A stretch of 64,000 bases of DNA from Actinomycetota bacterium (lineage in GTDB: Bacteria > Actinomycetota > Acidimicrobiia > Acidimicrobiales > CAIXPF01), in assembly GCA_034211175.1 (NCBI GenBank), contig JAXHUH010000073.1, positions 1-64,000 on the forward strand. The letters are read 5' to 3'. The notes under the pieces are model-generated. The model saw only the letters and a program-made list of their open reading frames with translations. It was not told where the DNA came from and ran no database searches. Below, piece by piece: positions 21,870 through 53,696 of the stretch (position 1 is its first letter; each line of letters starts with the position of its first letter). Both the position numbers and the translations under genes were made by a program.

Positions 21870-22655
21870 ATGGCCGACTGGTTGGTGGCGCGGTTGCGGG
21901 ACCGGTTGGAGGTCAACGCACCGTACGAGGGGGTCGTGGCCGAGGGCTACGACGCGTGGATCCCGGTCGACGAGCCGCTCGAGGAGGAGGCCGTCTACCG
22001 GCGGGTCCTCGACGAGACCGACGGGACCACCCTGGAGCTCGGCTGCGGCACCGGCCGACCGCTGCTGCGCTGGCTGGCCGACGGCTACGACGTCGAGGGC
22101 ATCGACGCGTCGGTCGACATGTTGCGCATCCTCTACCGCCACGCCACCGAGCGCGGCCTCGACCCGACCGTCCACCACGGTGACATGGCCCCGCTCGCCC
22201 TCGCCCGCGGCTACGGCGCCATCGTCTGCCCGGCCGGCTCGTTCATGCTCATCGACGACGTGGACCGCGCCCGCCGGGCCCTCGCCAGCTACCTGGCCCA
22301 CCTGCACCCGGGTGGCACGCTCGGCCTCACGATGAGCGCACCCGGCCCCGACGACGACGTCGGGCAGCTGTCGTGGCGGATCCGGCGCACCGGCACGACC
22401 TCGGACGGGCGCACGATCGTCGTGAACGAGGCGACCCGGGTCGACCGCGACGAGCACGTCACGATCGTGTTCAACCGCATCGAGACCTACGACACCGAGG
22501 GCAACCTCCATGCCACCACCATGCGGCGCAACCACCTCCGCTGGTGGCCCCGCGACGTGCTCGGCGCCACGCTGGCCGAGGTCGGCTTCGTGGACGTGCG
22601 CTCGGTCGGTGACGACCGGGGCTGGGTGAGCCTGGCCCGCGCCCCGCAGGCCTGA
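21870..22655 (+). CDS. class I SAM-dependent methyltransferase
   Basis: 261 aa. SAM motif LELGCGTGRP. Confidence 0.8.
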   Translation: MADWLVARLRDRLEVNAPYEGVVAEGYDAWIPVDEPLEEEAVYRRVLDETDGTTLELGCGTGRPLLRWLADGYDVEGIDASVDMLRILYRHATERGLDPTVHHGDMAPLALARGYGAIVCPAGSFMLIDDVDRARRALASYLAHLHPGGTLGLTMSAPGPDDDVGQLSWRIRRTGTTSDGRTIVVNEATRVDRDEHVTIVFNRIETYDTEGNLHATTMRRNHLRWWPRDVLGATLAEVGFVDVRSVGDDRGWVSLARAPQA

Positions 22656-22746
22656 TGGCGCAGAGCCCGCGGCCTGCGTCCCGTTCGACCAGACTCGGAG
22701 CCGACCGGCGAGCGACGCCGGGTGTCGAACCCCGGAGGGGCCAGCC

Positions 22747-23661
22747 GTGCCGACCACGTTGCGACCGGACGTCCTCGTCGCCGGCGGGGACCGCCTCGGT
22801 GAGGGCCCGCTGTGGGACGACCGCACCGGGACGCTCCACTGGATCGACATCAGCGACGGCGAGATCTGGAGCCGCACCGGGCTCGACGACGACGCGACCG
22901 TCGAGCGCCGGACGACTCCGTCGATGGTCGGCACCGTGGCACTCGACGAGGACGGCCGCCTCTTCGCCGGGCTCGTCGACGGCATCGCGGTCCTCGACGG
23001 TGCAGAGGGCGATGCGGTCGCCACGGCGGGAGGCGACCCCGACTGGCGGATGGTGGCCACCTACGGCGATCAGCCGGCCGACGTCCGCAGCAACGACGGC
23101 AAGGCCGACCCGTTCGGCTCGCTGGTCATCGGCACCGCGCACCACGACGGGGCTCCGGATCTCGGGAAGCTCTACCGCCTGCGGCCCGACCGGGCGGACC
23201 TCGAGGTGCTGCTGGAGCCGGTGACGATCTCCAACGGCCTCGACTGGGACGAGACCGGCACCACGCTGACCTACATCGACACCCCGACCCGCACGCTCCG
23301 CCGTTTCCGCTATCGCCCCGACGGCCCGCTCGAACCGACCGGCGACGACCTCGTCGTCGACCGCACGCTCGGCCACCCCGACGGCATGTGCCTCGACGCC
23401 GATGGCTGTGCCTGGGTTGCGCTCTGGGGCGGCGGCGGGGTCGCCCGGTTCACACCGGCGGGTGTGCTCGACACGTTCGTCGAGGTCCCGACGACGAACG
23501 TGACCTGCTGCTGCTTCGCAGGGGCCGACCTCGACCGCCTCGTGATCACCACTGCGTCGCAGGGCCTCGACGCCGGCGCCGACCGGACCCACGCCGGTTC
23601 GGTGTTCGTGGTCGACCCCGGCGTCACGGGTCGGCGGGCCAACCGCATCTGGCGCACCTGA
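22747..23661 (+). CDS. SMP-30/gluconolactonase/LRE family beta-propeller protein
   Basis: 304 aa. GEGPLWD, N-D-G and DxDG blade motifs. Confidence 0.85.
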   Translation: MPTTLRPDVLVAGGDRLGEGPLWDDRTGTLHWIDISDGEIWSRTGLDDDATVERRTTPSMVGTVALDEDGRLFAGLVDGIAVLDGAEGDAVATAGGDPDWRMVATYGDQPADVRSNDGKADPFGSLVIGTAHHDGAPDLGKLYRLRPDRADLEVLLEPVTISNGLDWDETGTTLTYIDTPTRTLRRFRYRPDGPLEPTGDDLVVDRTLGHPDGMCLDADGCAWVALWGGGGVARFTPAGVLDTFVEVPTTNVTCCCFAGADLDRLVITTASQGLDAGADRTHAGSVFVVDPGVTGRRANRIWRT

Positions 23662-23688
23662 CGCCCCGCGCGGAGCGGAGGCTGGTGC

Positions 23689-24165
23689 TCAGACGCGGAT
23701 GCTGCGCTGCACCGCGAAGCGGCCGCCGTCGTCGACGGCCGCGATGAGCAGGCGGGCGAGCTCGGTTCGTCGATCGTCGTCGAGCTCGGCCAGCACCTCG
23801 CCCATCACCCGGGTGCGCACGACGGCGAGGCGCTCGTCGGCCTCGCGGCCCGCGTCGGTGGCGACGACGGCGTGGCGCCTCCGGTCGGCGGGATCGCGGC
23901 GGCGCTCGACGAAGCCGGCGTGCTCGAGGATGTCCAGCACCCCGACGAGGTCCGACGGGTCGAGGAGCAGGTGGTCGCTGATGCCGCGCTGGGAGATCGG
24001 GCCGACGGCGACGACGCAGTGGAGCACGCTCATGCACGGCGGCCGGAAGCCGGTGTCGGCGAGCCAGGTCTCCGCCGCCATCAGCTCCTGGGTCGATTGC
24101 CGGAGCCGGGACGCCACGGCCAGCAGCGCCCAGAACATGTCATCGGGGGACGGCTCCGTCGCCAT
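23689..24165 (-). CDS. MarR family transcriptional regulator
   Basis: 159 aa from ATG 24165. wHTH (SQRGISDHLLLDPSDLVGVLDILEHAGFVERRRDPADRR). Confidence 0.8.
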   Translation of the reverse strand: MATEPSPDDMFWALLAVASRLRQSTQELMAAETWLADTGFRPPCMSVLHCVVAVGPISQRGISDHLLLDPSDLVGVLDILEHAGFVERRRDPADRRRHAVVATDAGREADERLAVVRTRVMGEVLAELDDDRRTELARLLIAAVDDGGRFAVQRSIRV

Positions 24166-24321
24166 CGCCCGATCGTAGCGACCGCAGCCGGAGACGATGG
24201 CGGCGAGCCACGGTTCGAGCCGCGATTCGTGGGTGGCGCCCACGGAATCGTCGTGTGGTCGGGTTCCGCGGGCGGATCCGGCGGGTGGGGCCGGCGGGCC
24301 GGCTCTCGGCGGGTCGGGACC

Positions 24322-25215
24322 TCAGTCGGTGTGGTCGGCAGCCGTAGTCCGGACGCGGTCGGTGAACTCCCGGACGACGTTCGTGAACGGGCCGGGTGCC
24401 TCGAGGTTCACCTGGTGGCCGACGCCGGCGAGCATGCCGACCGATGCGCCCCGCACCTTGGCGACGAGCAACGCTGCGGCGTCGTGCACGTCGGAGGTGG
24501 CGAGCTCGCCGACGAGGACCCGGACCGGCAGCTCGAGCTCGGCCAGGCGGTCGTTGGCCCGCAGCTCGAGGCTGCGGCCGGTGCCGGCGGCCAGGGTCGA
24601 GAGGGACTCCTCGTAGAGCGACCGGCAGCGATCGCGCACCGCGGCGTCGGTCTGGCCCGCCGTCCGGTGCGGGCCGTCGACCCACAGGCGCAGCAGGAGC
24701 TCGATGACGTCCGGCGCGTTGGTCGAACCGGCGGCATCGCGCAGGCGGTCGTTGTGGGCCAGCACGTACGGGTCGCGGTACCGGGCGCCGCTCAGCTCGG
24801 GGGACGCCAGCACGAGCCCGTGCACGCGCTCGGGGTGGGTGAGCGCGGCGTCGACGGCGATTCGGGCGCCGAGGCCCGCGCCGACGAGAACGGCGCGCTC
24901 GAGCGCGAGGTGGTCGAGCAGCGACCGCAGGTCGTCGACGTGGGAGAAGTCGCCGCGCACGGCGGGCGATCGGCCGTGGCCGCGCAGGTCGTAGCGCACG
25001 ACGTCGTGGTCCTCGGCCAGCGAGGCGACCTCGCCGTCCCAGGCGGCGGCCGTGAGTGCCCGGTCGTGGACGAGTACCAGCGGCACGCCGTCGCCGTGGC
25101 GCTCGTGGTGGACCGTGCCCGCACTCGCCCCGGGCTCCGATGCCCCGTGCCCGACTCCACCTGCCGCGTGCTCCCCACCGACGCGGTCGTTGCCGACGTG
25201 TTCACCACCAACCAT
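24322..25215 (-). CDS. alpha/beta hydrolase fold protein
   Basis: HG oxyanion-like (LVLVHD), RGHGRS, and nucleophile-elbow-like GAGLGARIA. Downstream of and co-directional with a TetR gene. Confidence 0.75.
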   Translation of the reverse strand: MVGGEHVGNDRVGGEHAAGGVGHGASEPGASAGTVHHERHGDGVPLVLVHDRALTAAAWDGEVASLAEDHDVVRYDLRGHGRSPAVRGDFSHVDDLRSLLDHLALERAVLVGAGLGARIAVDAALTHPERVHGLVLASPELSGARYRDPYVLAHNDRLRDAAGSTNAPDVIELLLRLWVDGPHRTAGQTDAAVRDRCRSLYEESLSTLAAGTGRSLELRANDRLAELELPVRVLVGELATSDVHDAAALLVAKVRGASVGMLAGVGHQVNLEAPGPFTNVVREFTDRVRTTAADHTD

Positions 25216-25275
25216 GCATCAACTGTACGGAGAGTGGTGTACACGTGACGCACCGTGTCGGGATTTGGGGGAGAA

Positions 25276-25929
25276 TCACCCAGGGGAGGGGCGTCGGGGG
25301 AGCACCTGCTCGGCCATGTCGGTGAGCAGGTCATCGATCGGGGGCCACGGGAACGCCGGGTGGTTGGCCCGCAGGTCGGCGATGCCGTGCACGCCGGTCC
25401 AGAGGTGGACCGCGATGCGGAACGCGTCGCGCTCGTCGGAGCTGCCGTCGTCGGGGGGTTCGGCGTCGAGGCAGCGCTGCACGGCATCGACGATCGCCAC
25501 GAAGCAGCCCGATCCGGGCACCTCCTCGAACGGCACGTCGCCCGCGACCCGGTCGGCGAGGCCGTGGTGGAAGATCGCCTGGTAGCGCCCCGGCTGCTCG
25601 TCGGCGAACTGCAGGTAGGCGCGGCCCATCGCCACCAGCGCGGCGAACGGGTCGTCGATCCCGTCGGTCGCGGCGGCGAGGTGCTGCTCGAAGTCGCCGA
25701 ACCGGGCCTCCACCACCGCCAGCAGCAGGTCGTCGAGGTCGTCGAAGTGCCGGTACACCGACGGGGCGCTGACGCCCGCCTCGGTCGCGACGGCCCGAAG
25801 TGAGAGCGCCTCGACGGCCCCGTGCTGCTCGAGGAGTCGGCTGGCCGCGTCGATCAGCTCGTCGCGCAGCTTCTGGCCCTCGCCGCGTCGGTTCCGCTTC
25901 CGGGTGGTCGTCTGCTTCTGGCTCTCCAT
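25276..25929 (-). CDS. TetR/AcrR family transcriptional regulator
   Basis: N-terminal TetR HTH (LRAVATEAGVSAPSVYRHF). Confidence 0.85.
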   Translation of the reverse strand: MESQKQTTTRKRNRRGEGQKLRDELIDAASRLLEQHGAVEALSLRAVATEAGVSAPSVYRHFDDLDDLLLAVVEARFGDFEQHLAAATDGIDDPFAALVAMGRAYLQFADEQPGRYQAIFHHGLADRVAGDVPFEEVPGSGCFVAIVDAVQRCLDAEPPDDGSSDERDAFRIAVHLWTGVHGIADLRANHPAFPWPPIDDLLTDMAEQVLPRRPSPG

Positions 25930-26110
25930 GCGCCCACCAGTGTGCGTCAGCTCGCGCTGTGTCGGAGGACACCGTGGACACGAGCGTCAATACGTCTTAA
26001 GGTCCTGCCCGTTAGCTTACATTCGTAAAGCTAAGAACGTGAGTTCACGACCGTGAACCGATGTGTGTGCCGTGCCGTCGGGCGGTCGGAGCGTCGGGCC
26101 GGGGTGGACC

Positions 26111-28390
26111 ATGCGGAGGAGGGACCCGATGTTCACCCGATTGTCCGAGCTCACCTTCACGAGACGCCGGCTGGTGCTCGTCGTGACCGTCGTGGCCGTG
26201 GCGCTCGCCGCCGCGGTCGGCTCCGGTGTCTTCGGCCGCCTCTCCGGAGGGGGCTTCGACGACCCCGACGCCGAGGCGATCCGGGCCGCCGAGGTGCTCG
26301 ACGAACGCTTCGACGCCGGCTCACCCGACCTCGTGCTGCTCGTCGATGCCGCCGGGGGAGACGTCGACGCCGACGCGGTCGCCGCCGCCGGCGTCGCCCT
26401 CACCGAGGAGGTCGGTGGCCTCGACGGGGTCGGCCGGGCGATCTCCTACTGGACGGCCGGTCGGCCGCCGTCGCTGCGCAGCGGCACCGGGGACGGTGCG
26501 CTCGTCCTCGTCCGACTCGACGGCGACGAGGACGCACAGGACGCCAGCGCGGAGCACGTCGCCGAGGTCGTCGAGCGGGCGAACGCCGACGCGGACGGTC
26601 TGATCGATGTCGGCGTCGGCGGACCGACCCAGGTGTTCACCGAGGTCTCCGAGACGATCGAGGGTGACCTCGCCCGGGCCGAGTCCATCGCTGTGCCGAT
26701 CACGTTGGTGCTGCTCGTCGTCGTGTTCGGCGGCCTGGTCGCCGCGTTGTTGCCCCTCGCCGTGGGCATGGTCGCGGTGTTCGGCGGGTTCGCCGTGCTC
26801 GTCGGCGTCACCATGTTCACCGACGTGTCGGTGTTCTCGATCAACCTGATCACCGCGATGGGCCTCGGCCTCGCCATCGACTACAGCCTGTTCATCGTCA
26901 ACCGGTTCCGTGAGGAGCTCGACGCCGGCCACGAGGTCCGGGACGCGATCTCCCGCACCGTGCGGACCGCCGGGCGCACCGTCGCCTTCAGCGGGGTCAC
27001 GGTGGCCGTGTCGCTGGCCGCGCTGCTCGTCTTCCCGCTCTACTTCCTGCGCTCGTTCGCCTGGGCCGGCATCGGTGTCGTCGCCGTCGCCGTGCTCACC
27101 TCGACCGTCGCCCTGCCTGCGCTGCTCGCGGTGCTCGGCCACCGGGTCGACCGCCTCCGGATCGGGCATCGCCGGCCGGTGGTCTCTGCCGATGGCTTCT
27201 GGTCCCGCACCGCCCACGCGGTGATGGCCCGCCCGTGGCCCTTCGCACTCGGCGTGACGCTGGTCCTCGTCGTGGCGGGCCTGCCGTTCTTCGGCGTGCA
27301 ATGGGGCCTGCCCGACGACCGGGTGCTCCCCGAGGATGCACCGGCCCGGGTCGTGAGCGACGAGCTGCGCGCCGACTTCGATGCTGGCGAGCAGGACGCC
27401 TTCGGCGTGGCCCTCCTCGGTCCGGGCGCCGCCACGGATGCCGCCGACGGGCTGGCCGCGTACGCCGCACTGGTGTCGCGGGTCGACGGCGTCGCCCGGG
27501 TCGACTCCGCCGTCGGCCACCACGCCGGCGGCGAGCTGGTCGCCGGGCCCGACGCCACGACGCTCCGCTTCCCGGCCGAGGGCGACACGTGGATCTCGGT
27601 CGTCGCGTCCGTCGAGGACATCTCGCCGGAGGCCGAGGCGATGATCGCCGACATCCGCTCGATCGACGCGCCCTACGACGAGGCACTCGTGGGCGGCACC
27701 TCGGCCGAGCTCGTCGACTCGAAGGCCGCGATCTTCGGCCTCGTCCCGTGGGCCGCGCTCTTGATCGCGGCGTCGACGTTCGTGCTGCTGTTCCTGATGT
27801 TCGGGAGCGTGGTCGTGCCGGCGAAGGCGATCGTGCTGAACCTGCTGTCGCTGACCGCGACGTTCGGGGCCATCGTCTGGGTCTTCCAGGAGGGCCACGG
27901 CGCCGGGCTCCTCGACTTCACGCCCACCGGCCTGACCGACACGTCGATGCCGATCCTCATGTTCTGCATCGCCTTCGGCCTGTCCATGGACTACGAGGTC
28001 TTCCTGCTCTCGCGCATCAAGGAGGAGTACGACCGCACCGGCGACAACACCGCGTCGGTGGCAACCGGCCTGCAGCGCACCGGCCGGCTCGTCACCGCCG
28101 CGGCGGCGCTGCTGTCGGTCACGTTCATCGCCTTCGGCACCTCCGAGATCACCTTCATCAAGATGTTCGGCGTCGGGCTCGCCATGGCCATCCTCGTGGA
28201 TGCGTCGCTGGTGCGTGCGCTGCTGGTGCCGGCGTTCATGCGCCTCGCCGGCGACGCCAACTGGTGGGCGCCCGCCGCGCTGCGCCGGCTCCACGACCGC
28301 ATCGGGATCAGCGAGCACGTCGAGCTCGACGACCCCGCCGCCGCGGATCGCGACCCGGCCGACGACGACCGTCCGTCGGTCCCCGCCTGA
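26111..28390 (+). CDS. MMPL family (RND superfamily) transporter
   Basis: ~760 aa. Two 6-TM bundles each followed by a periplasmic domain. Conserved MMPL segments (GLAIDYSLFIVNRFREE; GLSMDYEVFLLSRIKEE). Confidence 0.9.
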   Translation: MRRRDPMFTRLSELTFTRRRLVLVVTVVAVALAAAVGSGVFGRLSGGGFDDPDAEAIRAAEVLDERFDAGSPDLVLLVDAAGGDVDADAVAAAGVALTEEVGGLDGVGRAISYWTAGRPPSLRSGTGDGALVLVRLDGDEDAQDASAEHVAEVVERANADADGLIDVGVGGPTQVFTEVSETIEGDLARAESIAVPITLVLLVVVFGGLVAALLPLAVGMVAVFGGFAVLVGVTMFTDVSVFSINLITAMGLGLAIDYSLFIVNRFREELDAGHEVRDAISRTVRTAGRTVAFSGVTVAVSLAALLVFPLYFLRSFAWAGIGVVAVAVLTSTVALPALLAVLGHRVDRLRIGHRRPVVSADGFWSRTAHAVMARPWPFALGVTLVLVVAGLPFFGVQWGLPDDRVLPEDAPARVVSDELRADFDAGEQDAFGVALLGPGAATDAADGLAAYAALVSRVDGVARVDSAVGHHAGGELVAGPDATTLRFPAEGDTWISVVASVEDISPEAEAMIADIRSIDAPYDEALVGGTSAELVDSKAAIFGLVPWAALLIAASTFVLLFLMFGSVVVPAKAIVLNLLSLTATFGAIVWVFQEGHGAGLLDFTPTGLTDTSMPILMFCIAFGLSMDYEVFLLSRIKEEYDRTGDNTASVATGLQRTGRLVTAAAALLSVTFIAFGTSEITFIKMFGVGLAMAILVDASLVRALLVPAFMRLAGDANWWAPAALRRLHDRIGISEHVELDDPAAADRDPADDDRPSVPA

Positions 28391-28478
28391 GCGGCGGAGA
28401 GCGGGAGCACGGCCTGAGCGGCGGAGAGCGGGGGCACGGCCTGAGCGGCGGAGAGCGGGGGCACGGCCTGAGGCGAGG
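28386..28478. repeat. three perfect or near-perfect 27-bp tandem repeats (CCTGAGCGGCGGAGAGCGGG[A/G]GCACGG) plus a 12-bp partial fourth copy
   Basis: Read directly. The first copy contains the MMPL TGA stop (28388-28390). Each following copy re-presents an in-frame TGA. The array lies ~45 bp upstream of the next gene. Confidence 0.8.
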
Positions 28479-28524
28479 TTCCCCACGCCGGGGGAGTTTC
28501 GGCTCGTGCGCCAGCGGGTACCGG

Positions 28525-30114
28525 GTGCCGGTGAGCCAGCCAGCTCCCCGTGACGGGCGACCCGATCCGACCACCGATGACCGGCGCCTCCGGGTGCTGG
28601 TCATCGGCGCGACCGGCTACGTCGGTGGCCGCCTGACCCCCCGCCTCCTCGCCGAGGGCCACCGCGTCCGTTGTCTGGTGCGGCGGCCGCCGAAGCTCAC
28701 CGCCCGTGTCTGGCACGAGCGGGTCGAGGTCCACAAGGGCGACGTCACCGACGCCGAGTCCCTCGAGGGTGCGTTCGACGACATCGACGTCGTCTACCAC
28801 CTGGTGCACTCGATGGGCGGCGGCGACGACTTCGCCGAGGTCGACCGGAAGGCCGCGGCCAACGTCGCCGAGGCCGCGGCCGCTGCCGGGGTCCGCCAGA
28901 TCGTCTACCTCGGCGGCCTCGGTGACGAGTCCGACCCGTCGGGTGCCGCGGCCGCGCTGTCACCCCACCTCGAGAGCCGCCACGAGGTCGGGCGCGTGCT
29001 CGCGTCCGGGTCGGTGCCGGTGACCGAGCTGCGGGCGGCCGTGATCATCGGGTCCGGCTCGGCGTCGTTCGAGATGCTGCGCTCCCTGGTCGAGGTGCTG
29101 CCGGCGATGATCACCCCGTCGTGGGTGCGCCGGTCGCGGTGCCAGCCGATCGCCATCGCCGACGTCCTCGACGACCTCGTCGGCGTTGCCGGGCTCGAGG
29201 ACGCCATGGGGCAGGTGCTCGACATCGGCGGCACCGACGTCGTGACCTACCAGGAGATGATGGTCACCTTCGCCGAGGTCGCCGAGCTGAACCGGCGCAT
29301 CGTCGTGCCCGTGCCGCTGATCTCGCCCCGGCTCAGCACCCACTGGGTCAACCTCGTCACCCCACTGCCGATCGGGCTGGCCCGGGAGCTGGTCAGCAGC
29401 CTGGTCAACGACGTCGTCGTCCGCGACGACCACGACATCAACCGCGTGCTGCCCCGCGAGCGCCTCGGGTTCCGCGAGGCGATCGCCGACGCGCTGGCCC
29501 GCATCGAGGACCGCGAGGCATCGACGAGCTGGTCCGACGCCAGCCTGGCCAGCCGCCCGGCCGAGCCGTGGAACTACGACCCGTCGTGGGCCGGCGCGAC
29601 CCTCTACGACGACGTCCGCACCCGCACGACGACGGCGTCGCCCGAGCGCACGTTCCGCACCATCGAGGGTGTCGGCGGGCGGCGCAGCTGGTACGTCGCC
29701 GATCCGCTGTGGAAGCTGCGTGGCCTGATCGACAAGCTCGTCGGCGGCGTCGGCCTGTCCCGGGGTCGGCGCGACCCCGACGAGCTGCGGGTCGGTGACG
29801 CGCTCGACTTCTGGCGGGTCGAGGAGCTCGACGAGCCGACCCGCCTGCGCCTGCGGGCCGAGATGCGCCTCCCGGGCCGGGCGTGGCTCGAGTGGCGGCT
29901 GCGGGGCCTCCCCGACGGGGGTGCCGAGGTCACCCAGCGGGCGATCTACCACCCGAAGGGCCTGGCCGGACGCGCCTACTGGTGGGTCCTGTGGCCGTTC
30001 CACGGGGTGATCTTCCCCCGCATGCTGCGTCGCCTCGTCGCCGAGGCCGAGGAGAAGGCCGCCGCGGCCGGCTCGAACGGCGGTCGCGCCCGGTCCCCGG
30101 TCGCCGCGGGCTGA
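28525..30114 (+). CDS. NAD(P)H-binding (NmrA/SDR-like) domain fused to DUF2867
   Basis: Rossmann motif VLVIGATGYVGGRL, then a DUF2867-like C-terminal half. GTG start near 28525 assumed. The 959-aa track ORF is an artefact that extends upstream antisense to the MMPL gene. Confidence 0.75.
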   Translation: MPVSQPAPRDGRPDPTTDDRRLRVLVIGATGYVGGRLTPRLLAEGHRVRCLVRRPPKLTARVWHERVEVHKGDVTDAESLEGAFDDIDVVYHLVHSMGGGDDFAEVDRKAAANVAEAAAAAGVRQIVYLGGLGDESDPSGAAAALSPHLESRHEVGRVLASGSVPVTELRAAVIIGSGSASFEMLRSLVEVLPAMITPSWVRRSRCQPIAIADVLDDLVGVAGLEDAMGQVLDIGGTDVVTYQEMMVTFAEVAELNRRIVVPVPLISPRLSTHWVNLVTPLPIGLARELVSSLVNDVVVRDDHDINRVLPRERLGFREAIADALARIEDREASTSWSDASLASRPAEPWNYDPSWAGATLYDDVRTRTTTASPERTFRTIEGVGGRRSWYVADPLWKLRGLIDKLVGGVGLSRGRRDPDELRVGDALDFWRVEELDEPTRLRLRAEMRLPGRAWLEWRLRGLPDGGAEVTQRAIYHPKGLAGRAYWWVLWPFHGVIFPRMLRRLVAEAEEKAAAAGSNGGRARSPVAAG

Positions 30115-30138
30115 CGGTTCGGGCCGCGGCGCGGTCCG

Positions 30139-30567
30139 TCACTCCACCAGCTTGCGCAACAGCCCGTCGAGCGTGGCCCGCTCCTCGTCGGTGAGCACGG
30201 CGAACGCCTCCCGGTCGACGTCGCGGACCACGGGGTAGGCGCGCCCCAGCAGCTCGTGGCCGGCGTCGGTGACGACGAGGTTCGACGGGCGACCGCGTCC
30301 GGCGTCACCGCGCTCGATCAGCCCGGCCGACGCCAGGCTGCGCAGCAGCTCGCTCATGCTCTGCGGGGTGATCAGCACCCGTCGTGCCAGTTCACCCTGG
30401 CTCAGCGTCTCGTCGTCGGCCACGAGGGCCAGGACGCTGAACTGGCGCGGATTGATGCCGCTCTCCCGCAGTGCCTCGTGCCACGACCGGGAGACGGTGT
30501 CGGCGGCGCGGGCGAGCAGGTAGCCGAGCTGGCGGTCGGGCTCCAGGGGCGCGCTCGGATCGTCCAC
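30139..30567 (-). CDS. MarR family transcriptional regulator
   Basis: wHTH (LSQGELARRVLITPQSMSELLRSLASAGLIERGDAGRGRPSNLVVTDAG). GTG start at 30567 assumed. Confidence 0.8.
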   Translation of the reverse strand: MDDPSAPLEPDRQLGYLLARAADTVSRSWHEALRESGINPRQFSVLALVADDETLSQGELARRVLITPQSMSELLRSLASAGLIERGDAGRGRPSNLVVTDAGHELLGRAYPVVRDVDREAFAVLTDEERATLDGLLRKLVE

Positions 30568-30611
30568 GACGTCGTACCTACACCCCCCTGCGACGGAACC
30601 GCCACGCGAGC

Positions 30612-30651
30612 CATCAGGTTCCTGATACTCTCCTCTATCAGGAACCTGATG
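30612..30651. promoter_or_regulatory. perfect 16/16 inverted repeat CATCAGGTTCCTGATA-N8-TATCAGGAACCTGATG (each arm itself near-palindromic) in the MarR/DUF1772 divergent intergenic region
   Basis: Read directly. Lower-GC island, 45 nt upstream of the MarR start and 70 nt upstream of the DUF1772 start. Confidence 0.6.
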
Positions 30652-30720
30652 GTCTGCGCGCGGTCGTCGGGTGCTGGTCGAGGTCCGGTGGATGCCGGAC
30701 GTGGTGAACGGGAGGCAGCA

Positions 30721-31272
30721 GTGACGACGACGGGAACAGGGGCCGCGGCGGGGATCGCGGCGATCTCGGGAGGTGCCGACGAGCGCCCGTGGCGTCGGTG
30801 GTCGACGCTCGGGGCGGTGCTCGGGCTCCTGCACTGGTTCTTCGGCAACCTCTACGAAGCCGTCGTCATCTCGCCGAACTGGGTCGTCGAGTCGCCCGCG
30901 CAGCTCACGCGGCTCAACGACTTCTTCGCGCGGACCAGCCCGACCCTCTACTTCGTGCCGGTGCTGGTCGTGGCGGTTGCGCTGACCTGGTGGCTGTGGG
31001 CGACGGCCCGCGGCTCGGTCGCCGCCACCGCCTACCGCCGCGCCGGCTGGTTGGCCGTGGTGGCGATGGCGGTCAACACGGTCGTCGTCGTGACCGTCGT
31101 GAGCGTGCTCTTCGGAGACGAGGCGACGCGGGCCGACGCCGATCTCACCGCCTACGCGTGGCGGTGGAACGTGCTCAACGTCGTCCGCATGGTCCTCGTC
31201 GCCGCGACCGCCGTCCAGCTGTTCGAGGCCTTTCGCCGGCTCGACCGGGCGGCCGAGCCGGCGCAGACCTGA
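30721..31272 (+). CDS. DUF1772-like (anthrone-oxygenase-like) small membrane protein
   Basis: 183 aa from GTG 30721 with a GGGAGG SD 8 nt upstream. Four hydrophobic helices and conserved Trp-rich segments. Confidence 0.6.
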   Translation: MTTTGTGAAAGIAAISGGADERPWRRWSTLGAVLGLLHWFFGNLYEAVVISPNWVVESPAQLTRLNDFFARTSPTLYFVPVLVVAVALTWWLWATARGSVAATAYRRAGWLAVVAMAVNTVVVVTVVSVLFGDEATRADADLTAYAWRWNVLNVVRMVLVAATAVQLFEAFRRLDRAAEPAQT

Positions 31273-31290
31273 CGGCGGCGCCCCGGCGGC

Positions 31291-33822
31291 TCAGCGCCAG
31301 AAGGTGCGGCGCCGCGTGCCGGTGTCCGACGGCCCGCCGTCGCCGGTCCCGTTGGTGTCGCCTGCGTCGTCGGCGAAGGCGTCGATGGCGGCGAGGGTGG
31401 CGCGATCGTCGCCTGCCGTCCCGGTCGTCCACGCCGTCGCGGCGTCGACGATCGCCCGTAGGCGATCGACGAGCCCCGCCGTCGCGCCGACCGACGTCAG
31501 GTCGTCGACGAGGAGCCGCAGCCGGCCGATCGCCCTGCGGGCCTCGTCGCGATCGCCGCCGGTGATCGCGGAGCGGAGCGCGGCGAGCTCGTCGTCGATC
31601 CGGTCGCGGTAGCGGGCCTCGGGCGGGTTCGCCGGCTCCTCGCGGCGGGCGCCGTCGGATCCACGGTCGCCGGCGGCCTCTCGTGCCGGGCGCCGCCGCA
31701 GGGCCCTGCCCAGGCGGCCGCCCGTCGCCTCGAGGTGGAGGGACGTCTGTGCTGCGGGCGGGGGCTGTGGCGACGCGAACGCGACGAACCCGTCGCCCGC
31801 GGCCGGTGATGCGGCGGCCGGCGCCGAGGCGACGAACGCCCGCATCGGAGGTGACGGTGGCGCCGCGGATGCCTGCTCCCAGCCGGAGGGCAACTCGACC
31901 GGCTGGACGATCCTCGCCGGGTCCGTCGACGACGTGCGCTCGGTGGTGTCGACGGCCAGGTACGCAGTGAACCGGCTGAGCACCCCGAACTGCAGCGAGG
32001 TGGCGATGATCCGGTCGGCCAGCCCGGCGTCGGGGCGCACGGCGTGGGCGTCCTCGAGATCCCGGACGCGGGCTCGGGCCCACATCGCGTGACCGGCCCG
32101 GTCGTCGACGCGGCAGGCGACCTCGGCGGTCCACGGGTCCCCGAGCTCGTCGGTCGCCGCCAGCGTGACCGTCGCCGGTGGGCGGCCCCGGTAGCGGCCG
32201 GCCACGACGAGCGGCACCCCTTCGAAGCAGTCGGCGCGGCCCGGGGTGGTGTCGTCGGCGACCACGTCGAAGCCGCCGCTCCCGGGTTCGCCGGCGTCGT
32301 GGTCACCGGCGTGGATGGTGAGGTCGCGCAGGACGGGTCGGGCGATGCGACGGTGGAGCGCCGTCATGACCTCGTCGAGGCGGTCCTCCGATTCGACGAG
32401 CTCGCACCGCCCGGCGCCGGCCGCCGCGAGGCGCCGGAGGAAGCCGGCGTTGACGGCCCGGTCGATGCCGACGGTGAACAGCCGCGCCGAGCCGAGCTTC
32501 GGGTCGAGCCCGGCGAGGATCTGGTCCTCGTTGCCGACCTGGCCGTCGGTGACGACCACGACGACGGCGTCCCGGTCACCGGACTCCTCGAGCGGCGCGA
32601 CGGCCTGCGTGAGCGCCGGCAGCATCTGGGTGCCACCCCGGGCGTCGAGGCGGGACAGGAACTCGACGGCCGCGTAGCGGTTCCGATCGGTGGCGGCGAC
32701 GAGCCCGTCCTGGTCGGGCGGGGTCTCGCACACGTGGTCGAACGCGACCACGGCGAACCGGTCGGTGCTGCGCAGCGAGTCGACGATCCGGGCCGCGGCA
32801 CGGCGGGCGGCGACCATCTTCCACCCCTGCATCGAGCCCGACCGGTCGAGGACGAGCACGACGTCGCGGGGCCCCGAACCCGTGGCCGCCGGTGGCACGA
32901 CCGTGGCATACCAGGTCCCGGTCCCGCGGTCTCCCGCGTCGCCGGCGCCGGGCTCGTTCACGTGGTCGGCGGCCGTCGTCGGCGTCGCGGTGTCGGGGGT
33001 GCACGTGACCCCGGTGGTGATCGTGTCGCCCCCGATCCCGAACCGGAGGACGAAGTCCCGGTCGACCCGCTCGCCGGGGCGCAGCTCGACCCGCATCGGC
33101 CCGGTGCCTGCCCCGTCGGTCATCACGACGTCGTGCAGCGCCGACCGCAGCCCACGGAGCCCGAGGTCGTCCGCGTCGATCGTCACGCCGACGGACAGGC
33201 GCACCGGGTTCGGGGAGCCCGGAAGGAGGACCGGGGGCGAGATCGTCGATGCGTCGGGCACCGCGTCGGTGTCGTCGGTGGTCCCGCCGGCGACGTTCGG
33301 CCCGTCGAGCGGGCTGCCGGGGACGTACCGGGGTGCGGTCACGAGCGGGAAGCGGAACGTGGCCTCGGCGCCGTCGACCGGGAGGCGCCACTCGAGATCG
33401 AGCTCGACGACCGCGGTCTCGCCCGGCCCGATGTTGCCGACCCGCATGGAGAACGTGTCCGGCCGGTTCTCCTCGGCGATGGCGGCGCGACGGCCCTGCT
33501 CGATCGCCTCGTCGTAGCCGGCCCGGGCCGCGGCGCGCTCCATCAGGGTGCCGTCGACGACGCGGTCGGCCACCGTCATGCGGAACCGGGTGACCGCGGC
33601 ACGGTCGGGGAGCGGGTGGAGGTAGGTGGCCTCGATCGCCCGGTCGAGGCGGTTCTCGAACGTCTGGCGCACCCGGACTCGGGCGACGAGGCCGGCGATG
33701 TGGCCGTCGACGTCGAGCGCCACCAGCGGCAGCGCCCCCTCCTCGGTCCGCAGCTCGCTCGGTGTGTCGCTCCAGGGCTCGTCGAGCTCGTCCGGTCGCA
33801 TCGTCGGGACGGGTGTGGTCAT
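31291..33822 (-). CDS. VIT (vault/inter-alpha-trypsin) domain + von Willebrand factor type A domain protein, 843 aa
   Basis: N-terminal VIT-like region, then a vWA domain with intact MIDAS (VLVLDRSGSM...GGT...VVVVTDGQVG), then a long Ala/Pro-rich C-terminal region. The ATG overlaps the stop of the upstream MerR gene as ATGA (33819-33822). Confidence 0.8.
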   Translation of the reverse strand: MTTPVPTMRPDELDEPWSDTPSELRTEEGALPLVALDVDGHIAGLVARVRVRQTFENRLDRAIEATYLHPLPDRAAVTRFRMTVADRVVDGTLMERAAARAGYDEAIEQGRRAAIAEENRPDTFSMRVGNIGPGETAVVELDLEWRLPVDGAEATFRFPLVTAPRYVPGSPLDGPNVAGGTTDDTDAVPDASTISPPVLLPGSPNPVRLSVGVTIDADDLGLRGLRSALHDVVMTDGAGTGPMRVELRPGERVDRDFVLRFGIGGDTITTGVTCTPDTATPTTAADHVNEPGAGDAGDRGTGTWYATVVPPAATGSGPRDVVLVLDRSGSMQGWKMVAARRAAARIVDSLRSTDRFAVVAFDHVCETPPDQDGLVAATDRNRYAAVEFLSRLDARGGTQMLPALTQAVAPLEESGDRDAVVVVVTDGQVGNEDQILAGLDPKLGSARLFTVGIDRAVNAGFLRRLAAAGAGRCELVESEDRLDEVMTALHRRIARPVLRDLTIHAGDHDAGEPGSGGFDVVADDTTPGRADCFEGVPLVVAGRYRGRPPATVTLAATDELGDPWTAEVACRVDDRAGHAMWARARVRDLEDAHAVRPDAGLADRIIATSLQFGVLSRFTAYLAVDTTERTSSTDPARIVQPVELPSGWEQASAAPPSPPMRAFVASAPAAASPAAGDGFVAFASPQPPPAAQTSLHLEATGGRLGRALRRRPAREAAGDRGSDGARREEPANPPEARYRDRIDDELAALRSAITGGDRDEARRAIGRLRLLVDDLTSVGATAGLVDRLRAIVDAATAWTTGTAGDDRATLAAIDAFADDAGDTNGTGDGGPSDTGTRRRTFWR

Positions 33823-34511
33823 CGTGTCCGCCTTTCGGGGCCGCTCGCTGCTGTGGCGTCGGGGTCGTCGTCTCGGAGGAGCCCCCGGGCGCGCAGCTCG
33901 TCGAGGAGCTGGTGGGCCGCGGCTGTGACCGCGGCGCCATCGGCCGTGGTCGGCATGCGCCCGGCCGGGAAGCTCAGGTGGACCCCGGGCGCCAGTTCCA
34001 CGGCAGCCAGCACCGGGGTCGTGTCCTCGGCGGGGGTCGTGTCCTCGTCCACGGGGGCCGGCGTCGCAGCCCAGAACGCGGCGGACCGGTGCGTCGGTCC
34101 CGCGGGCGCGGGTTGGCGCGGCGTGGGCTGCGGCACCGGTTGCCGCGGACGCGCCTCGGCGGACGCGGCCCTCGTGGCCGTCGTGGCCACGGCCCCGATG
34201 GCGGCGAGCTCCCGGTCGGTGCGGCCGACGAGGCGCTGCTGGATGTCGCCCAGCGCGACGTCGTCGGCCTGGAGCCGCTTGATGGCCAGCACCTGGAGCA
34301 CGTGGCGCTCGCCGTAGAGCGCCGTGCGGCCCCGGTGGGACACCGGCGGGTCCAGGAGCCCGAGCGTGCGGTAGTAGCGCAGCGTCCGCTCGGTCGGTGC
34401 GGCACCGTTGCCGTCGGGCGCGCGCAGATGCCGACCGACCTGCCGCACGAGCTCGTCGATCGTGAACGTCGCCCCGTCCGGCGCTGATGCTGATCCCGGC
34501 GTCGTTCCCAT
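33819..34511 (-). CDS. MerR family HTH protein, Cys-free, with Pro-rich linker and ~90-aa C-terminal domain
   Basis: MerR HTH (FTIDELVRQVGRHLRAPDGNGAAPTERTLRYYRTLGLLDP) with an unusual insertion in the recognition region. There are no cysteines. Translationally coupled (ATGA) to the VIT-vWA gene. Confidence 0.8.
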   Translation of the reverse strand: MGTTPGSASAPDGATFTIDELVRQVGRHLRAPDGNGAAPTERTLRYYRTLGLLDPPVSHRGRTALYGERHVLQVLAIKRLQADDVALGDIQQRLVGRTDRELAAIGAVATTATRAASAEARPRQPVPQPTPRQPAPAGPTHRSAAFWAATPAPVDEDTTPAEDTTPVLAAVELAPGVHLSFPAGRMPTTADGAAVTAAAHQLLDELRARGLLRDDDPDATAASGPERRTR

Positions 34512-34519
34512 CGCCGCCC

Positions 34520-34542
34520 ACTGTAACAGTCACTGTGACAGT
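34520..34542. promoter_or_regulatory. 23-bp near-perfect dyad ACTGTAACAGT-C-ACTGTGACAGT (20/23 self-complementary; two nested 11-bp palindromes), 8 nt upstream of the MerR start
   Basis: Read directly in the 100-bp gap between the MerT-like gene's stop and the MerR ATG. Confidence 0.45.
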
Positions 34543-34612
34543 ACTGCGGGGAAACGGGGAGATCGGTGGGGCCCGGGTCTGCGGCGCGAGGTCTCGGGCT
34601 CGGCCGTCGAGC

Positions 34613-34849
34613 TCAGTGTCGGGTCGGCTCGGTTGTGTCCGGAGCGGGGTCGCCGTCGCCGCGGCCGCTCCGCCGTCGGGCCGCGGCACGTGCCCCGACG
34701 ACGATGAGCACGCCGAGTACGGCGATGACCGGACCGCCGGCGCGATCGAGCGCCGCCCCGACCCCGACCCCGACCGCGGCGAGCAGCGGCCCCGCGCAGC
34801 ACGCCAGGCATCCGACTGCGCCGAGGGCGGCGAGCCGCCGCCCGCTCAT
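34613..34849 (-). CDS. small two-helix membrane protein with MerT/MerF-like vicinal-cysteine helix (78 aa)
   Basis: MSGRRLAALGAVGCLACCAGPLLAAVGVGVGAAL resembles MerT TM1 (…SPCCWLPLLAVALGVSGAWL…), followed by a second hydrophobic helix. The ATG overlaps the upstream regulator's stop as ATGA (34846-34849). Confidence 0.55.
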   Translation of the reverse strand: MSGRRLAALGAVGCLACCAGPLLAAVGVGVGAALDRAGGPVIAVLGVLIVVGARAAARRRSGRGDGDPAPDTTEPTRH

Positions 34850-35622
34850 GCGGGGACCCCGAAGACCGCGTCGACGAGCTCTGCGGCGTCGGACGGGGTC
34901 CGCACCTCGAGCGCGACGCCGCGGTGGTCGACGGTGATGGTGAAGGCGAAGAACGTGCAGCACGCCTGCTCGGCCACGACCAGGCGGGTCAGCTCGTCGA
35001 TCGGTGCCGCCGGGACGAGCTCGAGGCGGAGGCCTCCGTCGTCGGTGCGGGACCGGTGGCGCACGTGGTCGAGGAACCGGCCCCAGTCCGCAGCGCGGTC
35101 GGGGATCTCGTCGGCGGACAGGGTGCAGGTGATGGCCGGGTCGCCCGTGGTCCCGAGCGGCACCCCCGTCGGCCGGACATCGTCGGCGTCACCGCCGTCG
35201 GATCGGCACCCGCACCCGGCGCTCATGCACGCGCACCCCTCGTCGCACGGGCCGTCGATCGGTGCGCCACCGAGGCGGGCGGCCGCGGTCTGCAGCTGCG
35301 CCGTGAGCCGCACGAGCTCGGCGCTGCGGGTGCGGGCATCGGCGATCTTGGTCGTCACCAGCGCGTGGAGCCGGGCCTGCACCGGTTCGCACTCGTCGCT
35401 GTCCCACAGCTCGACGAGGTCGGCGATCTCCTCGAGGCTGCACCCGAGCTGCTTGGCCCGGGCGATGAACCCGAGACGCTGCAGCGAACGATCGTCGTAG
35501 AGGCGGTAGCCGGCGTCGGTGCGCCCGGCCGGCTCGAGGAGGCCGTGCTGCTCGTAGTAGCGCAGCGTCGAGGCCGGGAAGCCGCTCCGCTCGGCGACCT
35601 GGCTGATGGTGAACGAGGCCAT
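34846..35622 (-). CDS. MerR family regulator with Cys-cluster (GPCDEGCACMSAGCGCRS) and C-terminal ~110-aa domain bearing a CC motif (EQACCTFFAF)
   Basis: MerR HTH at the N-terminus (FTISQVAERSGFPASTLRYYEQHGLLEP), then a coiled coil and the Cys cluster. The second domain is of unknown family. Confidence 0.75.
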   Translation of the reverse strand: MASFTISQVAERSGFPASTLRYYEQHGLLEPAGRTDAGYRLYDDRSLQRLGFIARAKQLGCSLEEIADLVELWDSDECEPVQARLHALVTTKIADARTRSAELVRLTAQLQTAAARLGGAPIDGPCDEGCACMSAGCGCRSDGGDADDVRPTGVPLGTTGDPAITCTLSADEIPDRAADWGRFLDHVRHRSRTDDGGLRLELVPAAPIDELTRLVVAEQACCTFFAFTITVDHRGVALEVRTPSDAAELVDAVFGVPA

Positions 35623-35677
35623 GGGGCGACGGTAGACCTTCGACCCGACTCGAAGGTCAAGGCCCGGTCGCCATCCC

Positions 35678-36000
35678 TCAGCGCGACGCGTACATGATCA
35701 CGGCCACGCCGACGAGGCAGATGGCGGCGCCGGTGAGGTCCCAGCGATCCGGTCGGAAGTCGTCCGCGACCACGCCCCAGGCCAGCGAGCCGGCGACGAA
35801 GATCCCGCCGTAGGCGGCCAGGACCCGCCCGAAGTGGTCGTCGTCCTGCAGCGTCGCCACGAAGCCGTAGGCCCCGGCAAGCTGAACGCAGCTCGACCGG
35901 AGGGCGCAGCCCGACGGCGAGCGAGGCTCAGCCGATCTCCGCGAGCGCGGCGAGGACGAACAGGGCGAGGGAGCGGCCGACGGGCACGTCGCGACCGTAG
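35678..36000 (-). pseudogene. ynfA: ynfA-like (UPF0060 small membrane protein) gene disrupted by an in-frame TGA and a frameshift (~20-nt internal deletion)
   Basis: Frame B encodes …[14 protein letters not shown] then TGA. Frame A encodes the rest ([67 protein letters not shown]). Both halves match the UPF0060/YnfA family order. This could also be an assembly error. Confidence 0.5.
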
Positions 36001-52535: not shown

Positions 52536-52654
52536 ATGACTGTCCTACCACCGCCGCGGGGCAAGGGCGCGCCCCGCCACGCCGGTCGGTGAAGGCGGCC
52601 CCGAGCGGTCGCGGGGCCGAGGGCCGCCGGGTGGGGCGGGGCTAGCGTGCCGCC

Positions 52655-53449: not shown

Positions 53450-53459
53450 GCGCTCCCCC

Positions 53460-53696
53460 TGATCATCTGAGCTCTCTCCGTGCTCAGGTGAGCACCCTAG
53501 GACGCCGATTCAACGGTGTGAGAGTCGGAGGTCCCAAATCGTGGTGGTCTTCGTGACCTACCTTCAAGGGCGATCGACCCACTCCGTGGTATCTTCAGCT
53601 CAGATGGTTTATTCGGATGATTTGAGCGTGTGTTTCAACCGGGTGGCGGAGGGCACCGTACAGTCTTCGACGAGCGACGACCGGAGGAGCGCGTAG
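53460..53696 (+). promoter_or_regulatory. 237-bp lower-GC leader/promoter region of whiB-like gene
   Basis: A GC drop to roughly 50% with AT-rich stretches (GGTTTATTCGGATGATTTGAGCGTGTGTTTCAACC), read directly. Confidence 0.35.

What the first reader, a model, noticed from the sequence alone, without database searches (positions are those of the whole stretch)
28386..28478. Three tandem 27-bp repeats that begin inside the MMPL stop codon
The unit CCTGAGCGGCGGAGAGCGGG(A/G)GCACGG occurs three times head-to-tail plus a partial fourth. Because the unit is 9 codons long, every copy presents an in-frame TGA to ribosomes leaving the MMPL gene. The array lies in the upstream region of the NAD-binding/DUF2867 gene. 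Candidate roles are a reiterated regulator-binding site, a mini-satellite subject to copy-number variation, or a read-through buffer.
Basis: seen in the sequence. Interest (0 to 1): 0.5.

Follow-up and report, generated by a model that had tools for sequence, protein, structure and literature searches.

The report
Ordinary 27-bp minisatellite after MMPL gene
A 27-base stretch that contains the stop codon of a membrane-transporter gene is present three times in a row, most likely through replication slippage; nothing indicates a function, and comparable repeats are common in related genomes.

Summary
Window 28385-28472 holds 3.3 head-to-tail copies of a 27-bp unit with one substitution. It is by far the strongest tandem repeat in the window. 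The MMPL stop codon (TGA 28388-28390) lies in unit 1, so an in-frame TGA recurs every 9 codons.

The array is non-coding: codon-position GC signal ends at the MMPL stop and resumes only near 28570-28594. It is not more structured than shuffled sequence on either strand. It matches no Rfam family and has no promoter or terminator consensus. No diverged copy occurs elsewhere in the window. Its 24-nt core has no exact match in 185,579 species genomes or 241 million metagenome records.

An independent k=31 assembly of run SRR24907501 breaks exactly where a tandem array predicts, so the duplication is not an artefact of one assembler. The copy number was not independently verified.

Comparable arrays occur about once per 57 kb in 455 kb of related loci, several on gene boundaries. 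In Yersinia pestis, 10 of 88 VNTRs overlap stop codons.

Best reading: a private, slippage-generated minisatellite, tolerated because it changes neither flanking protein. Regulator-site and read-through-buffer roles have no support. Copy-number variation could not be tested. Interest is low.

The parts
28385..28472 (.). Tandem array of 3.3 copies of a 27-bp unit (CCTGAGCGGCGGAGAGCGGGRGCACGG). The + strand is G-rich: 15 G and 7 C per unit.
   Evidence: TRF score 169, 98% matches. Period-27 identity runs from 28385 to 28445 with one mismatch at 28406. The 27-mer occurs nowhere else in the window.
28386..28412 (+). Unit 1, the variant with A at 28406. It contains the MMPL stop codon.
28413..28439 (+). 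Unit 2, identical to unit 3.
28440..28466 (+). Unit 3.
28466..28472 (+). Terminal partial copy GCCTGAG. Together with 28385-28391 it forms the 7-nt direct repeat that probably seeded the first duplication (inference).
26129..28390 (+). MMPL-family transporter gene, 753 aa, identical to NCBI MDY7101183.1. Its stop is TGA 28388-28390.
   Evidence: Pfam MMPL E = 2.8e-78. A 100% match P0121 and its accession. The C-terminal tail length is normal compared with homologues.
28388..28390 (+). The functional MMPL stop codon. In-frame copies of it lie at 28415-28417, 28442-28444 and 28469-28471.
28474..28501 (+). An 11-bp-stem hairpin immediately 3' of the array, -17 kcal/mol, with no U tract. It may be a weak U-tail-less terminator of the MMPL transcript; this is uncertain.
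   Evidence: z = -1.5; 14 of 200 shuffles fold as well. It does not match the terminator consensus.
28531..30114 (+). SDR-type NAD(P)-binding + DUF2867 gene. NCBI (MDY7101184.1) starts it at GTG 28531. Codon-position GC and homologue N-termini favour GTG 28594.
25276..25929 (-). TetR-family regulator (MDY7101182.1), divergent from MMPL. Context only.

Best explanation
The array is a lineage-private minisatellite, a VNTR-type locus, in the non-coding spacer between an MMPL transporter gene and an SDR/DUF2867 gene.

Proposed origin (inferred): the ancestral sequence held one 27-bp unit bounded by the 7-nt direct repeat GCCTGAG. Slipped-strand mispairing or unequal recombination between those short repeats produced the first duplication, and further slippage produced the present three units plus a partial one.

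Why it persists (inferred): the duplicated segment begins 3 nt before the MMPL stop codon, so translation always ends at the first TGA. The downstream start codon lies at least 58 nt beyond the array. Copy-number changes therefore alter neither protein and only lengthen the spacer by 27 nt per unit. The extra in-frame TGAs are a by-product.

Shown here: the anatomy, the non-coding status, the lack of structure, the lack of dispersal, and the base rate of similar arrays. Inferred: the slippage origin, neutrality, and likely copy-number instability.
For: Near-perfect copies, with 1 substitution in 81 nt, indicate a recent origin or ongoing homogenisation. The array ends in a partial copy, so it is bounded by the direct repeat GCCTGAG.

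Codon-position GC is 0.93-1.0 in the MMPL frame up to about 28390, flat from 28420 to 28570, and high in the SDR frame from about 28570. The array is therefore non-coding. Homologue N-termini place the downstream start next to the GATGY motif.

The RNA folds no better than shuffles: z = +0.76 for the + strand and +2.77 for the - strand of the array, and +1.04 and +0.66 for the whole spacer. No G-quadruplex appears in the minimum-energy fold. There is no Rfam match and no promoter or terminator consensus.

There is no other copy in the window, even a diverged one. The 24-nt core has 0 exact matches in genome contigs and metagenome contigs.

The MMPL-DUF2867 adjacency is absent from relatives at about 60% identity, so the spacer is not a conserved intercistronic element.

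The base rate is similar elsewhere. In 454,783 nt of related loci there are 8 arrays with period >=10, >=2 copies, >=85% matches and score >=70. Three of these have >=3 copies at >=93%. Several sit on gene boundaries, including an 18-bp duplication that also contains a TGA stop (L006).

In Y. pestis, 10 of 88 VNTRs overlap stop codons, and the authors judged them to have little effect on the ORF (PMC3689786).
Against: Copy-number polymorphism, the defining behaviour of a VNTR, could not be tested. The nearest available relatives (84% nt identity, L012-L014) stop 144 nt or more short of the array, and nothing closer is in the collections.

The copy number of three rests on the MAG assembly alone. 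Absence of evidence for a function is not proof of neutrality: no binding, transcription or expression data exist. A role for the array in spacing the stop codon from the adjacent hairpin (28474-28501) or from the downstream start is not excluded.
Confidence: 0.75

Rival explanations
1. The array is a reiterated cis-regulatory site. A DNA-binding protein that recognises direct repeats would bind it; each unit carries two GAGCGG hexamers 10 nt apart. Binding would control the downstream SDR/DUF2867 gene or read-through from MMPL.
For: The array lies 58-121 nt upstream of the downstream start codon. GAGCGG occurs six times with 10/17-nt spacing. TetR and MarR regulators are encoded nearby.
Against: TetR and MarR proteins typically bind palindromes. 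Operator-like palindromes exist in the TetR/MMPL spacer and do not resemble the unit. The hexamer pair is not enriched elsewhere in the window: 5 matches against 3.9 expected. No promoter-like sequence lies in or beside the array. The 27-bp period is about 2.6 helical turns. Near-identity of the copies points to recent duplication rather than an old conserved site. The sequence is absent from all other genomes scanned.
Confidence: 0.08
2. The array is a selected read-through buffer. The repeated in-frame TGAs would be maintained to stop ribosomes that read through the leaky UGA of MMPL.
For: There are four in-frame TGAs at 27-nt intervals. In a 73% GC genome in-frame stops are otherwise sparse (my estimate from base composition).
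Against: Any duplication of a stop-containing unit whose length is a multiple of 3 produces this pattern. One back-up stop would suffice. The proposed ancestral single unit already had two in-frame TGAs. The L006 array shows the same by-product in a relative. There is no comparative evidence of conservation.
Confidence: 0.03
3. The array, or its copy number, is an assembly artefact.
For: The source is a metagenome-assembled genome. Short tandem repeats form loops in de Bruijn graphs. The independent Logan assembly does not span the array.
Against: Logan contig L015 (run SRR24907501, k=31) is 100% identical to window 28443-35935. It starts exactly at the first 31-mer that is unique after the exact period-27 stretch 28407-28445 = 28434-28472. 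This is the branch point expected if the reads contain both the ...CCTGAG|C and the ...CCTGAG|G continuations. The A/G difference between unit 1 and units 2-3 is not what a collapsed or looped artefact gives. The whole array is 88 nt, short enough for single reads to span.
Confidence: 0.05
4. The array is translated. It could be an N-terminal (LSGGERGHG)x3 extension of the SDR/DUF2867 protein, whose frame is open through the array, or part of a frameshift fusion of MMPL to that protein.
For: The downstream gene's frame is open from 27235 to 30114 and reads LSGGEREHG LSGGERGHG LSGGERGHG.
Against: The only in-frame start codon upstream of the array from 27900 onward is GTG 28264, inside MMPL. 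There the third-position GC of that frame is about 0.5, against 0.93-1.0 for the MMPL frame. No codon-position signal exists across 28420-28570. Most homologues start 2-8 residues before the GATGY motif. Long open frames are common at 73% GC.
Confidence: 0.02
5. The array is a structured or functional RNA element of the MMPL 3' UTR or the intercistronic region, such as a terminator, a stabiliser, a G-quadruplex or a Rho-loading site.
For: The + strand RNA is G-rich. The - strand RNA is C-rich, G-poor and unstructured, which resembles a rut site for antisense transcripts. A hairpin follows the array.
Against: The array folds no better than shuffles on either strand. No G-quadruplex appears in the minimum-energy fold. 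There is no Rfam hit and no terminator consensus. The hairpin lies outside the array and is only marginally better than shuffles.
Confidence: 0.04

Closest known systems
Bacterial VNTR/minisatellite loci that overlap a stop codon (e.g. 10 of 88 VNTRs in Yersinia pestis; PMC3689786)
   Same: Head-to-tail copies of a short unit, with the stop codon of the upstream ORF inside the repeat, so that copy-number change leaves the protein unchanged. The location is intergenic or at a gene boundary.
   Different: Polymorphism among strains is documented for the Y. pestis loci and is untested here. The host is an uncultured high-GC Actinomycetota (Acidimicrobiia-like) MAG. The unit is 27 bp and very GC-rich.
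MIRU-VNTR loci of the Mycobacterium tuberculosis complex (my own knowledge of Supply et al. 1997 and 2000; an example in the rnc-fpg1 spacer is in PMC2734929)
   Same: A tandem minisatellite in a spacer between same-strand genes of an actinobacterium. The repeat touches the stop codon of the upstream gene.
   Different: MIRU units are about 40-100 bp, belong to a family dispersed over some 40 loci, and can carry small ORFs coupled to both flanking genes. Here the unit is 27 bp, it is single-locus as far as can be seen, and no start codon is coupled to the stop.
REP/BIME-type intergenic repetitive palindromes
   Same: A position just downstream of a gene.
   Different: REP elements are imperfect palindromes that form hairpins and occur in hundreds of dispersed copies. 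This unit has no dyad symmetry, folds no better than shuffles, and has no other copy.
Iterons and direct-repeat operator arrays
   Same: Several identical direct repeats side by side.
   Different: Such arrays sit at origins or promoters and have a cognate binding protein. None of these is evident here.

Membership tests
VNTR / bacterial minisatellite | Head-to-tail copies of a unit of about 10-100 bp with high identity between copies | tested here: met
   27 bp x 3.3 copies, 98% matches, no indels
VNTR / bacterial minisatellite | Copy number differs among strains or populations | not testable with these tools
   No read access. The closest relatives' contigs (84% nt) end before the spacer. 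No closer sequence is in the collections.
VNTR / bacterial minisatellite | A real feature of the genome rather than an assembly artefact | tested here: inconclusive
   An independent k=31 assembly breaks exactly at the predicted branch point, which supports at least two tandem copies. The copy number of 3 was not independently verified.
MIRU (mycobacterial interspersed repetitive units) | Unit of about 40-100 bp belonging to a family dispersed over many intergenic loci | tested here: not met
   The unit is 27 bp. No other copy exists in 64 kb at up to 3 mismatches or by gapped search. There are no exact core matches in public genomes or metagenomes. The rest of the source genome was not available.
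MIRU (mycobacterial interspersed repetitive units) | A small ORF in the repeat whose start and stop overlap those of the flanking genes | tested here: not met
   The stop overlap is present. No ATG, GTG or TTG overlaps it (the sequence is CTGA), and the array ends 58 nt or more before the next start.
REP/BIME palindromic elements | An imperfect palindrome able to form a stable hairpin | tested here: not met
   Array fold z = +0.76 (+ strand) and +2.77 (- strand)
REP/BIME palindromic elements | Many dispersed copies per genome | tested here: not met
   None in the window beyond chance: the best match is 21/27, equal to the shuffle maximum. Only 64 kb of the genome was available.
Reiterated regulator-binding site / iterons | A cognate binding protein and a position at a promoter or origin | not testable with these tools
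   No promoter consensus. No similarity to the local operator-like palindromes. The motif is not enriched. Binding itself needs an experiment.
Intrinsic terminator | A GC-rich hairpin followed by a U tract | tested here: not met
   No site was found. The array is unstructured. The adjacent hairpin 28474-28501 lacks a U tract.
CRISPR array | Repeats separated by unique spacers of similar length | tested here: not met
   The units abut directly, with period equal to unit length and no spacers

The most novel reading that the evidence does not exclude
The array could be a contingency-type element. Slippage in units of 27 nt would change the distance between the MMPL stop codon or 3' hairpin and the SDR/DUF2867 start, or the number of binding sites for an unidentified direct-repeat-binding protein. 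Expression of the downstream gene would then vary within the population.
Probability: 0.07. Interest if true: 0.35.

Novelty: new member of a known kind. Interest (0 to 1): 0.08.

Why it matters
It matters little for biology. The locus is a clean example of a tandem duplication that is tolerated because it starts at a stop codon. Its practical value would be as a strain-typing marker for this uncultured Actinomycetota population if copy number proves variable. It also shows that this locus breaks k=31 de Bruijn assemblies. If copy number turned out to affect the downstream SDR/DUF2867 gene, it would be a modest case of repeat-mediated expression variation in an environmental actinobacterium.

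Tried and rejected
Dispersed element. I ran a mismatch search, an ungapped scan of all 27 cyclic permutations on both strands, and a gapped blastn-short against the window. Nothing exceeded chance. An apparent resemblance at 53470-53489 was not significant.

Public collections. The 24-nt core gave 0 matches in genome contigs and in metagenome contigs.

Orthologous loci for a copy-number comparison. The best DUF2867 and MMPL relatives are only 60-67% identical and lack the gene adjacency. A search with the C-terminal 90 aa of MMPL returned only fragments at or below 81% identity. The 84%-identical relatives in Logan runs SRR28562609-11 end at window-equivalent 28616 or 28900. Ten guessed partial MMPL products, meant to retrieve the left-hand Logan contig, were not in the collection. 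A look-up of P0121 found no contig on record.

RNA roles. Rfam was searched at permissive and gathering thresholds. Folding on both strands and G-quadruplex-enabled folding were run. A promoter and terminator scan was run. All were negative. One script with a regex G4 scan returned no answer.

Coding roles. These were rejected from the frame plot, the list of start codons and the homologue N-termini.

Regulon motif. GAGCGG-N4-GAGCGG is not enriched.
Full report
**1. Observation**

The sequence at 28385-28472 is a head-to-tail array of a 27-bp unit, CCTGAGCGGCGGAGAGCGGG(A/G)GCACGG.
- Tandem Repeats Finder reports period 27, 3.3 copies, 98% matches, no indels and score 169. The next best score among 108 rows for the window is 84.
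- A search for the 27-mer with up to three mismatches returns only the three full units (28386, 28413, 28440). The expectation from 100 dinucleotide-preserving shuffles is 0.00.
- A base-by-base comparison at lag 27 shows identity from 28385 to 28445 with one mismatch: A28406 against G28433. The fourth, partial copy is therefore CCTGAG, ending at 28472.
- The MMPL ORF ends at TGA 28388-28390, inside unit 1.
- Because 27 is a multiple of 3, in-frame TGAs recur at 28415, 28442 and 28469.

The description is confirmed, with two small corrections. The array starts 3 nt before the stop codon rather than inside it, and it ends at 28472 rather than 28478.

**2. Context and source**

Pfam annotation of the neighbourhood gives this gene order:

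| Gene | Coordinates | Strand |
|---|---|---|
| TetR regulator | 25276-25929 | - |
| MMPL transporter | to 28390 | + |
| NAD_binding_10 + DUF2867 protein | to 30114 | + |
| MarR regulator | 30139 onward | - |

- The window is 73% GC.
- The MMPL protein from ATG 26129 is identical to NCBI MDY7101183.1, from a 104,938-nt contig of a MAG labelled Actinomycetota bacterium.
- The TetR, SDR and MarR proteins are MDY7101182.1, MDY7101184.1 and MDY7101185.1.
- The best homologues of the SDR/DUF2867 and MMPL proteins are 60-64% identical. They come from Acidimicrobiia: MAGs, Iamia, Actinomarinicola and Ilumatobacter.
- In three relatives examined, the gene upstream of the DUF2867 homologue is not an MMPL gene. 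The spacer is therefore not a conserved intercistronic region.
- The MMPL C-terminus is conserved up to ...RRLHDRIGISE. A variable acidic tail follows, and its length here is typical, so the array has not truncated the protein.

**3. The array is non-coding**

- GC at third codon positions of the MMPL frame is 0.93-1.0 up to about 28390.
- Between about 28420 and 28570 the three phases are flat, at 0.7-0.83.
- From about 28570 the third-position signal of the SDR frame rises to 0.9-1.0.
- Most homologues begin 2-8 residues before the V(I/T)GATGY motif. This favours GTG 28594, although NCBI chose GTG 28531. Either start lies 58 nt or more beyond the array.
- The SDR frame is open through the array, reading LSGGEREHG and then LSGGERGHG twice.
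- The only upstream in-frame start from 27900 onward is GTG 28264, inside MMPL. There that frame shows no coding signal.

**4. The array shows no sign of being a structured or recognised element**

- Spacer RNA 28370-28600 folds no better than shuffles: z = +1.04 on the + strand and +0.66 on the - strand.
- The array alone gives z = +0.76 on the + strand and +2.77 on the - strand.
- Allowing G-quadruplexes does not change the minimum-energy structure.
- No Rfam family matches at gathering thresholds anywhere in the window. At E <= 10 within 27800-29000, no match overlaps the array.
- No sigma-70-like promoter and no hairpin-plus-U-tract terminator is found in 27800-29000.
- Immediately after the array, 28474-28501 can form an 11-bp-stem hairpin of -17 kcal/mol. 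It is only marginally better than shuffles (z = -1.5) and has no U tract. It might be a weak terminator, but it is not part of the repeat.

**5. The array is not dispersed and not shared**

- The best match outside the array to any cyclic permutation of the unit, on either strand, is 21 of 27. This equals the maximum in shuffled windows.
- A gapped blastn-short of a unit dimer against the masked window gives at best an 11-nt exact match, E = 0.53.
- The 24-nt core GAGCGGCGGAGAGCGGGNGCACGG has no exact match in one genome from each of 185,579 species, nor in 241 million metagenome records.
- The source MAG is evidently not in those DNA collections, so the rest of its genome could not be searched.

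**6. Regulator-site idea**

- The TetR/MMPL divergent spacer holds two palindromes: TTAGCTTACATTCGTAAAGCTAA at 26012-26037 and GTTCACGACCGTGAAC at 26043-26058. These are what TetR operators usually look like, and they bear no resemblance to the unit.
- The internal pair GAGCGG-N4-GAGCGG, allowing one mismatch, occurs 5 times outside the array against 3.9 ± 1.9 expected.
- Nothing here supports a binding site. Binding itself cannot be tested in silico.

**7. Is it an artefact?**

- Two contigs of an independent assembly (Logan, run SRR24907501) are 100% identical to the window. L010 covers 22162-27059 and L015 covers 28443-35935.
- The exact period-27 stretch is 28407-28445 = 28434-28472. The last 31-mer that occurs twice therefore starts at 28442, and the first unique 31-mer after it starts at 28443.
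- L015 begins at exactly 28443.
- A k=31 de Bruijn graph branches at that position only if the reads contain both continuations of ...GGCCTGAG: C (another unit) and G (exit from the array).
- This is independent support for at least two tandem copies. It does not fix the number at three.

**8. Base rate and precedent**

- I ran TRF with the same parameters on 454,783 nt of related loci, fetched around DUF2867 homologues.
- It finds 8 arrays with period >=10, >=2 copies, >=85% matches and score >=70. That is about one per 57 kb.
- Three of them have >=3 copies at >=93%. The window has one array passing the same filter in 64 kb.
- Several of the eight lie on gene boundaries. L006 2036-2082 is an 18-bp, 2.6-copy duplication that also contains the TGA stop of the upstream gene, so it also repeats an in-frame TGA.
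- In Yersinia pestis, 54.5% of 88 VNTRs are intergenic. Sixteen overlap ORF ends, and ten of these overlap stop codons. The authors note that copy-number variation there should have little effect on the ORF (PMC3689786).
- Tandem repeats that fill a spacer between same-strand genes are also documented in the M. tuberculosis complex (PMC2734929).

**9. Interpretation**

The most economical account is a slippage-born minisatellite.
- The array is bounded by the 7-nt direct repeat GCCTGAG (28385-28391 and 28466-28472). This is the kind of microhomology that seeds a first duplication.
- Units 2 and 3 are identical and unit 1 differs by one base. This fits a very recent last expansion.
- The position is one where such an event is harmless. 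The first TGA still ends MMPL at a normal place, and the next gene starts well downstream.
- The extra in-frame stops follow automatically.

These steps are inference from anatomy. What is shown is the anatomy, the non-coding and unstructured nature, the single-locus distribution, the partial independent confirmation and the ordinary base rate. I put this reading at about 0.75. The remainder is shared among an unrecognised cis-regulatory role, a copy-number artefact, an RNA role, selected tandem stops, and translation.

**10. What could not be done**

- The key test, copy number in close relatives or in reads, was out of reach.
- The only close relatives found (84% nt identity; Logan runs SRR28562609-11) have contigs ending at window-equivalent 28616 or 28900.
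- Protein searches with the whole MMPL, its C-terminal 90 aa and the SDR protein found nothing else above 81%.
- Guessed partial products did not retrieve the left-hand Logan contig.

**11. Verdict**

The repeat is real and correctly seen. It is an ordinary, private minisatellite of a well-known kind, and its interest is low.

Noticed in passing
window 26012-26058: Two palindromes, TTAGCTTACATTCGTAAAGCTAA and GTTCACGACCGTGAAC, lie in the AT-richer divergent spacer between the TetR gene and the MMPL gene. They are likely TetR operators controlling the transporter.
   Followed up: partly
window 34519-34546: CACTGTAACAGTCACTGTGACAGT consists of two adjacent ACTGTnACAGT palindromes. It sits at the start of a MerR-family gene (33819-34511, - strand) and is probably an operator.
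   Followed up: no
L006 2036-2082: In an Acidimicrobiia MAG (GCA_020832495.1), an 18-bp, 2.6-copy tandem duplication contains the TGA stop of a class II aminoacyl-tRNA synthetase-like gene. It repeats an in-frame TGA, the same phenomenon as the finding.
   Followed up: partly
L047 124-186: A 17-bp, 3.7-copy array (GACAGTCATGAGGAAGA) carries an SD-like GAGGAA and an ATG in each unit, at the start of an ORF. A repeat on a start codon could change the N-terminus or the translation start.
   Followed up: no
window 28474-28501: An 11-bp-stem hairpin (-17 kcal/mol, no U tract) lies directly after the array. It may be a U-tail-less terminator for MMPL. A 15-codon mini-ORF (GTG 28506 to TGA 28553), preceded by GGGGGAG, lies between it and the SDR gene.
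   Followed up: partly
window 53450-53700: A roughly 250-nt AT-richer spacer follows ORF 52646-53449. It has a weak 21-bp repeat and a CTGAGC...GCTCAG hairpin that starts at the stop codon. No Rfam match was found.
   Followed up: no
P0125, P0127, P0130-P0132, P0135-P0137 (MMPL homologues): A subset of MMPL homologues shares a conserved C-terminal extension of about 50 aa (...EPVGDGGHGGAVLEEEGV..VEP...LLVGG.GDAV...) that is absent from the window's protein.
   Followed up: no
protein cluster of MDY7101184.1 (window 28531-30114): The 90% cluster that holds the source SDR/DUF2867 protein is represented by a 50-aa TARA fragment (P0243) with no evident resemblance to it. This hid the source protein from the homologue search.
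   Followed up: partly
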